From a virus (Duplodnaviria; Heunggongvirae; Uroviricota; Caudoviricetes), in the IMG/VR virus record IMGVR_UViG_2675903538_000006, positions 1 through 16,904 of that record: a stretch of 16,904 nt of DNA; one strand, 5' to 3'. A program made the position numbers. This document shows, one piece after another, positions 3,001 through 6,000 of the stretch. Each line of letters starts with the position of its first letter. Within the stretch, counting starts at the first letter, position 1.

Positions 3001-6000
3001 ATCACTGGAAAATAGAAAAACAGCCTGAGTGGTACGTGAAAGCTGTCAGAAAAACTATCGCGGCGTTGCCGGGTGGTTACGCTGAAGCTGCTGACTGGCT
3101 GGATGTAACAGAGAACGCATTATTTAACCGCCTTCGTGCCGATGGCGATCAGATTTTCCCGCTGGGATGGGCAATGGTTTTACAGCGCGCAGCTGGCACT
3201 CACTACATTGCGGATGCTGTCGCACAGTCTGCTGGTGGGGTGTTCGTATCGCTTCCTGAAATTGAGGAAGTAGAGAACGCCGATATAAACCAGCGCCTGC
3301 TGGAAGTCATCGAACAGATCGGGAGTTACTCAAAGCAGATTCGTTCGGCAATCGAAGATGGGGTAGTGGAACCGCATGAGAAGACAGCAATTAACGACGA
3401 ACTGTATCTTTCAATTTCGAAGCTCCAGGAGCATGCAGCACTGGTCTACAAAATCTTCTGCTCTCCAGAAAAGAGTAACGCCCGCGAGTGTGCAGCTCCG
3501 GGCGTCGTGGCGTCGATTGCTTCTGGTTGTGGAGAAACTAACGCATGAATAGTTTAACGGCAAATAACCGTTTGTCGCAACAGCTGGTGGTCAGCGTCGC
3601 TGAACACCTGTTGTTACGGCATGAATGCAGATTACCAAATCACCTGGCTGTAAGTAACCACAGAGAACTTTACCTGACTGTGGGGGGCGAGTTGTGCAGG
3701 AACTTAACCGCTGGTTTCGTGACGGAAGAGGACTTTATGTTCATGTTATTCGTTGGGAGCCAGAAACACAGCGCGTTATCTATCTTCGCAAAGACTACCC
3801 GCATGAGTGCTTTAGTCCTTTGTGGAAATTCAGGCGTGATTTTGTTGAGTGTGAAGGACCACCAGCATATTGATTCTGCAATTCCGGGACGTTACACTGC
3901 TCAAGCACCTTATAAAGCGGGTGCCGGGCGTGGAAACCCGAAATTCAATATAGAGCACAACCGCGCTCATGCGGTTTTTTCGTGTCATGAGCATCGTTAC
4001 GCCCAAATTATGGTGGGGCGTGCAGGGCCAACTTCGGTTGGGCCGGGTTCTATGTTGACCGGTATTTCCACCCCTGTACGTCTCACCACCTATATGGTCG
4101 TGGAAAGCCTTGGTGGTGAGTTCATTGAATTCAACATAGGGGCTGTCACCATGACTACTCTCCCAACCCAATCTCACCCTGAAATCACGATTATCAATGG
4201 TCGCGTTGTCACCACATCTCTTGCAGTAGCTAATTACTTTACTAAACGGCATGAGCGGGTTTTAGATAGAATTAGAAACCTCGAATGTTCCGCTGAATTT
4301 ACTGAACACAATTTTGTGTTAAGTGAATACACCGACGCATCAGGCCGCAAACTCCCTTGTTACCAAATCACCCGCGACGGTTTTGCGTTTCTTGCCATGG
4401 GCTTCACTGGTAAACGTGCTGCCCGGTTCAAAGAGGCATACATCAACGCCTTTAACCTGATGGAGAAACAGCTTTCAAAGCCCGCTGTACCGAGCGACGT
4501 TGCACATAACGCCAGCGTTCTCTGTTCCTACATTTCATCAATTCATCAGGTCTGGCTGCAGCAGCTTTATCCTATGTTGGCAAAAGCCGAATCTCCGCTG
4601 GCTGTTAGCTTATATGACTATATTAATGATGCTTCGGCGCTGGCCTGCCTCATAAATTTGTCGCTGAACCCTTCAGAGGCAAGGGGGCGCAAATGATCCG
4701 GAATATTTTCAAACGTTTTACCAATCAGACTTTCCGTTGTCCTCGTCCGGGTCAGTGGTACACCACGCCTGTAGGGCATATTCTACGTGTTAGCCTGGTT
4801 GACCGTGAATGTCAGAAGGTGATTTGTGAACCGCTGGGCCGTAATTACCGCGTCAGTATGCCGCTTATAGCCTTTCGCTCCGGAAAAAACATGAAGCATC
4901 TCGGAGGTGCAGCATGAGTATGGAGCTGATGGTTAAAGCGATGAAAATTCGAGTGGGTAATCCATTGCGAAAACTGGTTCTGATCAAGCTGGCTGATAAT
5001 GCCAGCGATCAGGGTGAGTGCTGGCCCAGCTACCAGCATATTGCTGACCAGTGCGAGATTAGCAAACGTTCTGTGATGAATCATATTGCGGCCCTTTGTG
5101 AGTCCGGGCTGGTAAAAAAAGTCACCCGGAAAGGTGAAAAAGGTAACTCAAGTAATATCTATCTCCTTCATCTTGATGGTGCAGGAGATTCACTAGGGAG
5201 TAGTGCAAATAATTCACTATCTGGTGCAGCAAATTCACCAGGTAGTGCAGGAGTTGCACCAGGTAGTGCAGGAGTTGCACCAGGGGGTAGTGCAGGAGAT
5301 TCACCCAGAACCAGTCACTCTTTTGAACCAGTCAAAGAACCAGTCAATGAACCAATAGCTGTTGGTGCATCTGCTGATGAGTCTGTGCGAGTTCGTTCAA
5401 ACCGACCGGAATACTCTCCGGAGTTTGAACAGGCATGGCTGGCATATCCCAAACGTGCTGGTGGCAATTCAAAATCTGCAGCCTTCAAAGCCTGGAAAGC
5501 CCGTTTGAATGAGGGGGTAACCCCCGAAACCATGCTGGAAGGTGTGAAACGCTACGCGGGCTGGGTATCTGCGATGGGTAACAGCGGCACACAATTTGTG
5601 AAACAGGCTGTCACGTTCTTTGGTCCGGATCGTCATTTCGAAGAATCCTGGGAAGTTCCTGCGATATCTGCAGCCAGACGCGAGGACCCGTACTTCAAAG
5701 CCAGTTACGACAACGTGGACTACAGCCAGATCCCGGCAGGATTCAGGGGGTGAGCATGAGTCTTTTGAATGACGTTCAGAAATTCATTGAAGCCCATCCG
5801 GGCTGTACTTCCGGAGACATTGCGGATGCTTTTGCAGGTTACTCACGGCAGCGCGTTCTGCAGTCAGCAAGCAAGTTACGTCAGAGTGGGCGTGTGGCTC
5901 ACCGTTGTGAAGGATATACACGCAGACATTTCCCGCGCCTGACTGAGAGAGCGCAGGAGCCGGAACCACAACCAGTTCGTGAAACCAGACCTGTGCGCAA

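What the first reader, a model, noticed from the sequence alone, without database searches (positions are those of the whole stretch)
3549..4150. Unresolved 600 bp between the CII-like gene and the Rha domain
The six-frame track shows one long ORF (3545-4696), but its first 200 codons are compositionally odd (His/Cys-rich, low complexity), whereas Rha-like sequence begins at an internal Met (4151) with its own SD. Inside the questionable part are a terminator-like hairpin with T6 (3959-3980), a CCAAC-UUCG-GTTGG tetraloop hairpin (about 4029-4047), and a 59-aa alternative-frame ORF (3694-3873) with a GGGGG SD that reads more like a protein. This position corresponds to nutR/tR1 in lambda, so the stretch may hold a structured RNA, a small gene plus terminator, or a decayed gene.
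Basis: seen in the sequence. Interest (0 to 1): 0.45.

Follow-up and report, generated by a model that had tools for sequence, protein, structure and literature searches.

The report
Antisense-RNA switch hidden in phage ORF
The odd first 600 bases of this annotated 383-codon phage "antirepressor" gene are not a protein domain: they hold a real small gene in another frame plus a known P4/P1-type pair of regulatory RNAs that controls the Rha protein starting at the internal ATG.

Summary
ORF 3545-4696 is open, but protein-level selection in its frame starts only at ATG 4151, where the Rha domain protein begins.

The stretch holds three things:
- 3545-3693 is a diverged YmfM-like N-terminus. Its ATG overlaps the stop codon of the CII/YmfL-like gene.
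- 3694-3873 is a genuine 59-codon DUF4222 gene in the -1 frame, with its own Shine-Dalgarno (SD) sequence. 19 of 23 variable sites are its third codon positions.
- 3870-4150 is a P4/P1/Gifsy-1-type immunity cassette. It has an internal promoter and an IsrK/seqA-like sRNA (3905-3981), which ends in the T6 terminator hairpin. A C4/CI antisense RNA follows (4006-4093, Rfam 82 bits) and contains the UUCG hairpin. Two target pairs complete it; the second (b2) overlaps the SD of ATG 4151.

C4 loops and both target pairs covary in 16 allele combinations.

The long frame is kept open without amino-acid constraint. No stops occur and indels preserve the frame. P4 eta/kil has the same layout, so the frame is probably translated from the upstream operon to override the RNA control.

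This is a new member of a known kind. The most novel part is the DUF4222/ymfM dual coding, which also applies to e14 of E. coli K-12.

The parts
2991..3548 (+). CII/YmfL-like regulator gene (context). Its stop TGA at 3546-3548 overlaps the ATG of the long frame.
   Evidence: Pfam Phage_CP76 and phrog_101. GTG 2991 follows AAGGAG. Homologues are annotated CII/YmfL.
3545..4696 (+). Long open frame F0 (383 codons), an eta-like carrier frame. It starts at ATGA, coupled to the upstream stop, with GGAG at 3531-3534. It runs over everything listed below and ends as the Rha protein.
   Evidence: Open in about 67 of 70 distinct relatives, with lengths differing by whole codons. Same layout as P4 eta.
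3545..3693 (+). Diverged YmfM-like N-terminal segment of F0, shorter by 6 residues than the family consensus.
   Evidence: hhalign against the YmfM N-domain profile gives probability 95.8%, E 8e-9. Selection in this lineage is weak or unclear: pN/pS 0.34-0.67 and variable sites 12/18/18 by codon position. In the larger family pN/pS is 0.31.
3682..3687 (+). G6 run, the Shine-Dalgarno sequence of the DUF4222 gene. It is also a homopolymer where 1-nt indels occur in three relatives.
   Evidence: SD plus ATG/GTG/TTG is present at the same place in 35 diverse loci.
3694..3873 (+). DUF4222 small gene (59 aa, GTG start, -1 frame relative to F0), fully embedded in F0. Predicted SH3/KOW-like beta-barrel.
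   Evidence: Pfam PF13973 at 51 bits and phrog_1343. 19 of 23 variable sites in 3694-3850 are its third codon positions. pN/pS 0.13-0.23. AF2 model pLDDT 86.
3870..3898 (+). Putative internal sigma-70 promoter: TTGATT (3870-3875), 17-nt spacer, TACACT (3893-3898). Start near G3905. The DUF4222 stop codon lies inside the -35 hexamer.
   Evidence: The hexamers and spacing are kept upstream of all 9 cassettes compared, while the flanks differ. This is the position of PisrK in Gifsy-1 and of the internal constitutive promoter of P4 eta. Not mapped experimentally here.
3905..3981 (+). IsrK/seqA-like small RNA with three hairpins.
   Evidence: Rfam RF01394 at 61.6 bits against 50, full length. The MFE fold equals the Rfam structure. 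The same element is found in P4 inside eta.
3930..3936 (+). a1 target box GUGGAAA, complementary to C4 a' (4065-4071).
3945..3953 (+). b1 target box UCAAUAUAG, complementary to C4 b' (4050-4058), with one G-U pair.
3959..3980 (+). Intrinsic terminator of the IsrK-like RNA: stem AACCGC/GCGGUU plus U6.
   Evidence: Other alleles carry alternative stems (GACGC/GCGUC), each followed by T6-7.
4006..4093 (+). C4/CI-type antisense RNA. It has a 17-bp closing stem, hairpin 1 at 4028-4041 (UUCG tetraloop), and hairpin 2 at 4042-4063. The loop of hairpin 2 carries b' (4050-4058). The junction carries a' (4065-4071).
   Evidence: Rfam RF01695 at 82.4 bits against 45. z = -5.2. 378 of 378 cells paired and 8 pairs with double changes in 14 variants, against 35-48% paired in slid controls.
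4010..4150 (+). orf45-like leader frame. Its AUG lies in the 5' arm of C4 and it runs 47 codons. Here it is in phase with ATG 4151 instead of ending at it.
   Evidence: The AUG is at +106 from the IsrK start; in Gifsy-1 it is at +107. The distance to the effector ATG is 135, 138 or 141 nt in 8 of 9 loci. pN/pS is about 1.
4100..4106 (+). a2 target box GUGGAAA.
4131..4141 (+). b2 target box UCAACAUAG(GG). It overlaps the SD AGGGG (4138-4142) of ATG 4151.
4151..4696 (+). Rha-domain regulator (putative antirepressor), 181 aa from the nested start that sits at the P4 kil position.
   Evidence: Pfam Phage_pRha covers aa 21-106 of this form. pN/pS 0.27. Distant Rha proteins align from residues 7-20. 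MTTLPTQSHPEI matches P4 Kil MATTLTPSHPEF.

Best explanation
The 600 bp is a stack of overlapping elements on the + strand. One stop-free carrier frame runs over all of them.

**Shown here**
1. A 59-codon DUF4222 gene (3694-3873) with its own SD and start is the only frame under amino-acid selection in that stretch.
2. From 3870 to 4150 lies a P4 CI / P1 c4 / Gifsy-1 IsrK-type cassette.
   - A putative internal promoter is followed by an IsrK/seqA-like sRNA that ends in an intrinsic terminator.
   - An 88-nt C4-type antisense RNA follows.
   - Its loop (b') and junction (a') are complementary to one box pair inside IsrK (a1, b1).
   - They are also complementary to a second pair (a2, b2) just upstream of ATG 4151. 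Box b2 overlaps the SD.
3. Amino-acid selection in the long frame begins at ATG 4151, where the Rha domain protein starts.
4. The long frame is nevertheless kept open and in phase in relatives.

**Inferred from P4, P1 and Gifsy-1**
- In a lysogen the internal promoter makes the short RNA and some read-through transcript. The read-through is processed to C4 RNA.
- C4 pairs with a2/b2. This blocks the Rha ribosome-binding site and may promote termination. It also pairs with a1/b1 in an allele-specific way, which keeps the antirepressor-like Rha protein off.
- The IsrK-like RNA competes with or remodels this pairing.
- When the early operon upstream is transcribed, ribosomes coupled from the CII/YmfL-like gene enter the long frame at ATG 3545.
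- They translate across the DUF4222 gene, the terminator and the C4 region, as P4 Eta does. This melts the RNA structures, prevents termination and bypasses the antisense block.
- The result is a long Rha form and expression of the replication genes downstream.
For: **RNAs**
- Rfam C4 at 82.4 bits and isrK at 61.6 bits, both full length.
- C4 helices: 100% of cells paired, with 8 compensatory pairs.
- In 16 distinct allele combinations (13 b' loops, 7 a' junctions), C4 matches both the upstream and the downstream boxes.
- blastn similarity to P88-like phages is bounded by about 3905-4093.

**Coding**
- Variable sites at the long frame's codon positions 1/2/3 in 3694-3850 are 2/19/2. The 19 are DUF4222 third positions.
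- pN/pS values are given.
- DUF4222 has its own SD and start in 35 diverse loci, often with a stop just upstream.

**Nested start**
- The SD-ATG and first codons are conserved with the cassette in front of Rha, epsilon-like and other proteins.
- It is homologous to the P4 Kil N-terminus.

**Carrier frame**
- No stops in F0 across DUF4222 in 35 of 35 sequences. The probability under synonymous shuffling is 0.013-0.098 each.
- Leu/Val codons followed by A end in T or C in 110 of 110 cases. In safe contexts 52 of 99 end in A or G.
- Indels keep the frame in phase.
- The ATGA start is coupled to the upstream stop here and in P4.
- P4 eta contains isrK and C4 hits and the Pfam Ash match.
- The P4 mechanism is summarised in PMC10111431 and the Gifsy-1 mechanism in PMC4825925.
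Against: - No expression data exist for this phage. The promoter, RNA ends, RNA processing and all start codons are inferred.
- The promoter matches only 8 of 12 consensus positions and was missed by the scan.
- Region A shows no clear codon periodicity in this lineage.
- Three relatives carry 1-nt indels in the G6 run that break the long frame. Full-length translation may therefore be dispensable, or those indels may be sequencing errors.
- Some cassettes lack an upstream in-phase frame: P88, L129 and L130.
- Part of the openness over the RNA region could simply be inherited with the conserved RNA sequence.
- The local hairpin that buries SD and AUG 4151 has no covariation support.
- Whether this Rha protein is an antirepressor was not tested.
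Confidence: 0.72

Rival explanations
1. The annotation is right as it stands. A single 383-aa multidomain antirepressor (N-terminal region, Ash domain, Rha domain) is the only product, and the embedded ORF and hairpins are incidental.
For: Deposited annotations and PGAP call one CDS. Pfam Phage_ASH and phrog_821/995 match the long frame. The frame is open in nearly all relatives.
Against: pN/pS in the long frame is about 1 or higher from 3695 to 4150. Variation falls on its second codon positions. The Rfam hits, helix covariation and three-way target covariation are not explained by a protein domain. The Ash HMM also matches cassette translations that contain a stop or lie outside any ORF.
Confidence: 0.03
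2. The long frame upstream of 4010/4151 is never translated. It is a gene-caller artefact. It stays open only because the DUF4222 codons and the conserved RNAs happen to lack stops in that phase. The real products are DUF4222, the RNAs and Rha from 4151 or 4010.
For: There is no amino-acid constraint in the frame. Three relatives carry frameshifts in the G6 run. Some cassettes have no upstream frame. PGAP sometimes annotates DUF4222 plus a shorter ORF on the same sequence.
Against: Stop avoidance across DUF4222 needs specific synonymous codon choices in lineages that diverged deeply. The YmfM-type N-domain is under purifying selection in this frame in relatives, and no stop follows it before the end of DUF4222. 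Paired non-3 indels restore the phase. The ATGA coupling and GGAG are conserved. P4 provides an experimental precedent.
Confidence: 0.2
3. Programmed -1 frameshifting at G_GGG_GGC (3682-3688) joins the 46 N-terminal codons to DUF4222, giving a ~108-aa protein.
For: The heptamer has the X_XXY_YYZ form and lies where both frames are open. A +1 G variant (L008) makes exactly this fusion.
Against: In other lineages the DUF4222 frame has a stop directly before its own SD-ATG (L007, L116, L122, L092, L090), and no slippery site is shared. DUF4222 is annotated and conserved as a 59-aa protein.
Confidence: 0.03
4. The stretch is the nutR/tR1 equivalent of an N-type antitermination system, with the T6 hairpin acting as tR1.
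For: It sits downstream of the cro/cII-like genes, and an intrinsic terminator is present.
Against: No boxA-like sequence occurs in 3500-4200. The hairpin is the 3' end of an Rfam isrK match preceded by its own promoter-like hexamers. The same cassette sits in P2-like and P4 genomes that have no N system.
Confidence: 0.02

Closest known systems
Satellite phage P4 immunity region: eta/kil nested genes with the internal PLE promoter, seqA, CI RNA and seqC (Forti et al. 1999, as summarised in PMC10111431)
   Same: The ORF starts at the stop of the upstream gene and spans an internal promoter, an isrK/seqA-type element and a C4/CI-type RNA. An in-frame nested start follows the second target site. 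In P4 the same Rfam models (60.8 and 74.9 bits) and Pfam Phage_ASH (82 bits) hit inside eta. The Kil N-terminus is homologous to the N-terminus at 4151.
   Different: The effector here is a Rha-domain protein rather than the 65-aa Kil. The carrier frame is 116 codons longer upstream, begins with a YmfM-like segment and overlaps a complete DUF4222 gene. The host element is a lambdoid prophage early-right operon, not a satellite. Termination control was not tested here.
Gifsy-1 isrK-orf45-anrP locus of Salmonella (PMC4825925)
   Same: An IsrK-type 77-nt sRNA has its own promoter and a rho-independent terminator. A processed C4/CI-like RNA (STnc1160) lies downstream. A leader ORF starts about 106-107 nt from the start site. 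An antirepressor-like gene follows.
   Different: In Gifsy-1 orf45 ends at the anrP AUG (AUGA). Here the equivalent frame runs in phase into Rha, and it also continues upstream of the promoter. Hfq binding and trans-activation were not tested here.
Phage P1/P7 immI operon: c4 antisense RNA, icd, ant (Rfam RF01695 and RF03163; own knowledge of Citron and Schuster 1990)
   Same: An antisense RNA cut from the same transcript it controls. Two target pairs (a1b1, a2b2) flank it. The downstream pair covers a ribosome-binding site. Allele-specific pairing gives heteroimmunity. All of this was seen here as covariation.
   Different: There is no icd homologue. The upstream targets lie in a terminated sRNA. 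The RF03163 model scores only 21.6 bits here against a cut-off of 46.7.
e14 prophage ymfM of E. coli K-12, an SOS-inducible division inhibitor (bioRxiv 10.1101/2020.11.19.390815)
   Same: It has the same ATGA start after ymfL, a homologous N-terminal segment, and the same DUF4222 gene embedded in the -1 frame of its second half.
   Different: In e14 the frame stops after 112 codons, about 10 nt before the next gene. Here it has no stop and runs on through the RNA cassette into Rha.
Lambda nutR-tR1
   Same: Only the position downstream of cro/cII-like genes and the presence of a terminator.
   Different: There is no boxA/boxB. The terminator belongs to an sRNA with its own promoter, and control is by antisense RNA.

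Membership tests
Rfam RF01695 C4 antisense RNA (P1 c4 / P4 CI class) | Covariance-model score at or above the gathering score, over the full model | tested here: met
   82.4 bits against 45, model positions 1-87 of 87, window 4006-4093.
Rfam RF01695 C4 antisense RNA (P1 c4 / P4 CI class) | Closing stem plus two hairpins supported by compensatory changes | tested here: met
   27 pairs with 378 of 378 cells paired and 8 pairs changed on both sides. Slid controls gave 35-48% paired. The MFE fold equals the consensus, z = -5.2.
Rfam RF01695 C4 antisense RNA (P1 c4 / P4 CI class) | Unpaired a' and b' segments complementary to two target pairs, one upstream and one downstream, with the downstream pair at a ribosome-binding site | tested here: met
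   Window pairings: a' 4065-4071 with 3930-3936 and 4100-4106; b' 4050-4058 with 3945-3953 and 4131-4139, next to SD 4138-4142. The same holds in 16 allele combinations.
Rfam RF01695 C4 antisense RNA (P1 c4 / P4 CI class) | Stable RNA processed out of a longer transcript that represses the downstream gene | not testable with these tools
   Needs Northern blots or RNA-seq and reporter assays.
Rfam RF01394 isrK | Score at or above the gathering score, with three hairpins, the last one an intrinsic terminator | tested here: met
   61.6 bits against 50, window 3905-3981. Terminator stem 3959-3976 plus T6. The fold agrees with the model.
Rfam RF01394 isrK | Own promoter immediately upstream | tested here: inconclusive
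   TTGATT-17-TACACT lies at 3870-3898 and matches 8 of 12 consensus positions. The hexamers are conserved in 9 cassettes. The start site was not mapped.
Rfam RF01394 isrK | Hfq binding and trans-activation of the read-through mRNA | not testable with these tools
   Known only for Gifsy-1.
Rfam RF03163 c4-a1b1 | Score at or above the gathering score | tested here: not met
   21.6 bits against 46.7 at 3892-3944. P4's own seqA region also falls just short at 44.1 bits. The functional feature, complementarity to C4, is met.
P4 eta-type nested gene | One ORF spans the internal promoter, the seqA-type element, the CI-type RNA and the second target site | tested here: met
   F0 3545-4696 contains all of them. 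Pfam Phage_ASH covers aa 117-213 at 38.6 bits against 26. P4 eta was analysed the same way.
P4 eta-type nested gene | An in-frame nested start after the second target site gives the short product | tested here: met
   ATG 4151 with SD. Its N-terminus is homologous to P4 Kil and it is conserved with the cassette.
P4 eta-type nested gene | The start of the long ORF is coupled to the stop of the upstream gene | tested here: met
   ATGA at 3545-3548. The same coupling or close abutment is seen in L006, L004, L128 and P4.
P4 eta-type nested gene | Translation of the long ORF from an upstream promoter prevents immunity-specific termination | not testable with these tools
   Only indirect support: the frame is kept open and in phase without amino-acid constraint.
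Pfam PF13973 DUF4222 | HMM score above the cut-off, plus signs of a translated gene in that frame | tested here: met
   51.1 bits against 27. Variation falls on its third codon positions. pN/pS 0.13-0.23. Own SD and start.
Pfam PF09669 Phage_pRha | HMM score above the cut-off | tested here: met
   105 bits against 29.9, aa 223-308 of the long frame.
YmfM family (e14 ymfM, phrog_1170) | N-terminal domain homologous and under purifying selection in this frame | tested here: inconclusive
   Homology is met: hhalign 95.8%, E 8e-9. Selection is clear in the main family, pN/pS 0.31. It is weak in the window lineage, 0.34-0.67 with no periodicity.
Lambda nutR/tR1 | boxA and boxB upstream of a terminator | tested here: not met
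   No CGCTCTTA-like site with up to one mismatch in 3500-4200. boxB was not searched for separately.

The most novel reading that the evidence does not exclude
The long frame (ymfM in e14, the eta-like frame here) and DUF4222 may form a true same-strand, fully embedded overlapping gene pair. Selection would then maintain both frames across Enterobacteriaceae prophages, including e14 of E. coli K-12. The overlapped part of the long frame would carry no amino-acid information. It would be kept stop-free only so that ribosomes coming from the upstream operon can pass. In this phage that passage continues across a promoter, a terminator and an antisense RNA and overrides them. If so, the published ymfM division-inhibition phenotype could belong to either product.
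Probability: 0.5. Interest if true: 0.6.

Novelty: new member of a known kind. Interest (0 to 1): 0.42.

Why it matters
**Annotation.** Relatives are filed inconsistently. Some are annotated as a single "antirepressor", "Rha family" or "Ash family" protein. Others are annotated as DUF4222 plus a shorter ORF. Neither form shows the two RNAs.

The Pfam Ash domain has no assigned function in the literature. Here and in P4 it coincides with the stretch that overlies the seqA/IsrK and CI/C4 RNAs. It evolves with pN/pS near 1 in the window-L090 comparison. It is therefore better read as an RNA footprint than as a protein fold.

**Biology.** The cassette occurs in at least 13 specificity alleles among otherwise near-identical Stx-converting and other E. 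coli and Salmonella prophages. Some relatives carry it in tandem. It is a likely determinant of which prophages can induce or cross-induce one another.

**Overlapping genes.** The DUF4222/ymfM overlap is a clean natural case of dual coding with asymmetric constraint. It also bears on a K-12 gene that has a published phenotype.

Tried and rejected
- **-1 frameshift fusion at the G6 run.** Rejected: other lineages have stops directly before the DUF4222 start, which has its own SD-ATG.
- **nutR/boxA.** No site found.
- **Antisense 140-aa ORF at 3830-4252 (-).** No family hits. It overlies the RNA cassette, as does a spurious antisense CDS annotated in P88.
- **Internal GTG 3851 as the start of an Ash-Rha protein** (suggested by phrogs 995 and 3960 starting there). 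Dropped: the codon is Ala in the Stx1 phage, and there is no coding signal between 3874 and 4150.
- **The 74-aa ORF at 4693-4917 as a DUF4222 paralogue.** hhalign probability 3%.
- **RBS-sequestering hairpin 4095-4157.** Strong in this sequence (z = -4.9), but only an invariant GGUGGU stem and no compensatory change across 13 alleles. Left open.
- **DUF4222 function from its fold.** Only generic SH3/KOW/Tudor barrels, with the best PDB match at E 0.05.
- **Forti et al. 1999 (PMC94026).** Could not be read. The P4 mechanism is taken from the summary in PMC10111431 and from my own analysis of the P4 sequence.
- **Formal pair counting for IsrK.** Not done, because the terminator stems differ in register between alleles.
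Full report
**1. What is in the sequence**

The window is the early-right region of a lambdoid prophage of the ST64B / SfV / mEp460 / Stx-phage type. Its gene order is as follows:
- a cI-like repressor on the minus strand;
- a cro-like gene;
- a CII/YmfL-like gene (2991-3548);
- the long ORF 3545-4696;
- a 74-aa ORF;
- replication genes.

The long ORF is 383 codons. Its ATG overlaps the stop of the upstream gene (ATGA), and GGAG lies 10 nt before it.

All items in the finding are present:
- the 59-codon GTG ORF at 3694-3873 behind a G6 run;
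- a hairpin plus T6 at 3959-3980;
- CCAAC-UUCG-GUUGG at 4028-4041;
- ATG 4151 behind AGGGG.

His is enriched in aa 1-202 (5.4%). Cys is not.

**2. The alternative-frame ORF is a real gene**

It matches Pfam DUF4222 (51 bits, cut-off 27) and phrog_1343 end to end. I aligned 63 distinct homologous DNAs taken from phage records and viral contigs.

In 3694-3850 the variable sites fall 2/19/2 on codon positions 1/2/3 of the long frame. All 19 are third positions of the DUF4222 frame.

| Segment and frame | pN/pS vs Citrobacter relative L090 | pN/pS vs ST64B |
|---|---|---|
| DUF4222 frame | 0.23 | 0.13 |
| Same bases, long frame | 1.06 | 7.9 |

In 35 further diverse Enterobacteriaceae loci, DUF4222 has its own SD and ATG/GTG/TTG. 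Often a stop lies just upstream in its frame. This rules out a frameshift fusion as the general mechanism.

An AlphaFold model (pLDDT 86) is a small SH3/KOW-like barrel with no informative structural neighbour.

**3. The stretch annotated as an Ash domain is an RNA cassette**

Rfam finds an isrK match (3905-3981, 61.6 bits, cut-off 50) and a C4 antisense RNA match (4006-4093, 82.4 bits, cut-off 45). Both are full length.
- The T6 hairpin is the terminator of the first RNA.
- The UUCG hairpin is helix 1 of the second.
- C4 folds to the family structure with z = -5.2.
- In 14 variants from relatives, all 378 pair cells are paired and 8 pairs change on both sides. Slid controls give 35-48% paired.

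The unpaired loop b' (4050-4058) and junction a' (4065-4071) are complementary to two box pairs:
- one inside the IsrK-like RNA (3930-3936 and 3945-3953);
- one downstream (4100-4106 and 4131-4139). The last box runs into the SD (4138-4142) of ATG 4151.

Across 16 distinct allele combinations (13 loops, 7 junctions), all three partners change together.

Promoter-like hexamers (TTGATT-17-TACACT, 3870-3898) sit in front of the IsrK start here. They are also present in all nine cassettes compared, while the surrounding sequence differs.

In the long frame pN/pS is about 1 over 3875-4150 against L090. It drops to 0.27 from 4151 on. DNA similarity to P2-like phages such as P88 is bounded by about 3905 and 4093.

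The Pfam Phage_ASH match (aa 117-213, nt 3893-4183) coincides with the cassette. The same HMM hits conceptual translations of the cassette in several settings:
- P88, where no forward ORF is annotated;
- a Yersinia phage, where the frame contains a stop;
- a Stx2a phage, where the frame opens only 21 nt upstream.

The protein after the P88 cassette belongs to a different family, Derepression PF25738.

**4. ATG 4151 is a genuine start**

The SD, the ATG and about seven codons are conserved with the cassette in front of unrelated proteins. Distant Rha proteins align from residue 7-20 of the 4151 product.

In P4 the homologous ATG starts Kil. Its N-terminus MATTLTPSHPEF matches MTTLPTQSHPEI here.

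**5. The long frame is nevertheless not an accident**

It is open in about 67 of 70 distinct relatives. Lengths differ by whole codons (381-389, or 278 with another effector).

Indels in the RNA part are multiples of three, or are paired (1+2). The distances from the IsrK start to the C4 AUG are 102, 105 or 114 nt. From the C4 AUG to the effector ATG they are 135, 138 or 141 nt, all multiples of three. P88 is the exception at 140.

Across the DUF4222 overlap, the long frame has no stop in 35 of 35 diverse sequences, while the third frame has 1-7. Synonymous reshuffling of DUF4222 codons leaves it stop-free only 1-10% of the time.
- Leu/Val codons followed by A end in T or C in 110 of 110 cases. 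A or G there would create TGA or TAA.
- In safe contexts 52 of 99 end in A or G.

Upstream of DUF4222, the frame encodes a conserved ~55-aa domain in the larger family. pN/pS is 0.31 in this frame and above 1 in the other two. This is the N-terminal half of YmfM of prophage e14.

The window's 3545-3693 is a shortened homologue (hhalign 95.8%, E 8e-9). Its own constraint is unclear.

**6. Known precedent**

P4 eta (ORF199) starts at the stop of the upstream gene. It contains isrK-type and C4-type Rfam hits and the Pfam Ash match, and it ends as Kil.

PMC10111431 summarises Forti et al. 1999 as follows:
- a constitutive promoter lies inside eta;
- its transcript is terminated through CI and seqA interactions and is processed to CI RNA;
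- Kil is the truncated nested product;
- full-length Eta is translated only from an upstream promoter and is coupled to the upstream gene;
- translation of Eta prevents termination.

The Gifsy-1 isrK-orf45-anrP locus adds further detail:
- the short terminated sRNA acts on the read-through mRNA;
- a leader ORF starts about 107 nt from the start site;
- translation of that leader ORF is needed for the antirepressor.

Here the equivalent AUG (4010) is at +106, but it is in phase with Rha.

**7. Model**

Shown:
- the DUF4222 gene;
- the two RNAs;
- the complementary boxes;
- the point where protein-level constraint begins;
- maintenance of the open frame.

Inferred by homology:
- the internal promoter and RNA processing supply C4;
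- C4 blocks the Rha ribosome-binding site in an allele-specific way, and IsrK modulates this;
- ribosomes entering at 3545 from the early operon read through everything and override the block.

**8. Weak points**
- No expression data are available.
- The promoter matches consensus only moderately.
- Three relatives have G-run frameshifts.
- Some cassettes lack an upstream frame.
- The RBS-burying hairpin has no covariation.
- The function of this Rha protein and of DUF4222 is unknown.

**9. Verdict**

The core is a member of a known system: P4 CI/eta-kil, P1 c4 and Gifsy-1 IsrK, all already represented in Rfam.

The less expected parts are two. First, the carrier frame fully overlaps a selected small gene. 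Second, the same dual coding applies to ymfM of E. coli K-12.

Noticed in passing
window 11852-12065 (+): Full-length Rfam match to the sRNA STnc100 (194 bits, cut-off 47) in the late region of the prophage.
   Followed up: no
L088 (E. coli K-12 e14) 1278-1636: The curated ymfM (112 aa, 1278-1616) and the PGAP DUF4222 CDS (1457-1636) are two frames of the same DNA. The N-half is constrained in the ymfM frame and the C-half only in the DUF4222 frame. The published ymfM filamentation clone also carries most of the DUF4222 ORF with its SD, so the phenotype is not assigned to a frame.
   Followed up: partly
window 3893-4183; L131 (P4) 8168-8767 (-): Pfam PF10554 Phage_ASH corresponds to the part of eta-like frames that overlies the seqA/IsrK and CI/C4 RNAs. 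It matches cassette translations with an in-frame stop or with no annotated ORF. It shows pN/pS near 1 against L090. One paper uses it as a profile for P4 epsilon, which is in fact a different family (PF25738).
   Followed up: partly
window 3682-3687 (G6 run); L008, L015, L034: Three relatives carry 1-nt indels in this homopolymer. The +1 G in L008 fuses the YmfM-like segment to DUF4222 (about 110 codons). The -1 in L015 and L034 ends the long frame after 53 codons. These may be real variants or sequencing errors.
   Followed up: partly
L014, L016, L029, L031 (relatives): Some relatives carry two tandem IsrK-C4 cassettes with different specificity alleles. In L016 one 598-codon frame runs from the ymfL-coupled ATG, and both cassettes lie in that locus.
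   Followed up: partly
window 4095-4157: A local hairpin (-29.3 kcal/mol, z = -4.9) buries a2, b2, the SD and AUG 4151. Across 13 alleles only an invariant GGUGGU/(G)YCAYC stem is shared, with no compensatory change.
   Followed up: yes
window 3817-3856: A 40-nt stretch is almost invariant among 63 relatives, and even DUF4222 third positions do not vary. It lies just upstream of the promoter-like -35 hexamer. The cause is not resolved.
   Followed up: no
window 3573-3621: A 49-nt imperfect hairpin lies inside the YmfM-like segment, in a part that differs between the window, L090 and ST64B. The 145-nt segment 3549-3693 as a whole is not unusually stable (z = -1.45).
   Followed up: no
L132 2001-3000 versus L089 2572-3720: The same architecture is annotated in two ways in public genomes. 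One has a single 382-aa ORF. The other has DUF4222 plus a 296-aa ORF from an internal ATG (equivalent to window 3803), even though the long frame is intact.
   Followed up: yes
window 4693-4917 (+): A 74-aa ORF (phrog_1153, unknown function) starts at ATGA on the Rha stop. It occupies the slot before the replication gene that DUF4222 occupies in e14-type loci. No detectable homology to DUF4222 (hhalign 3%).
   Followed up: yes
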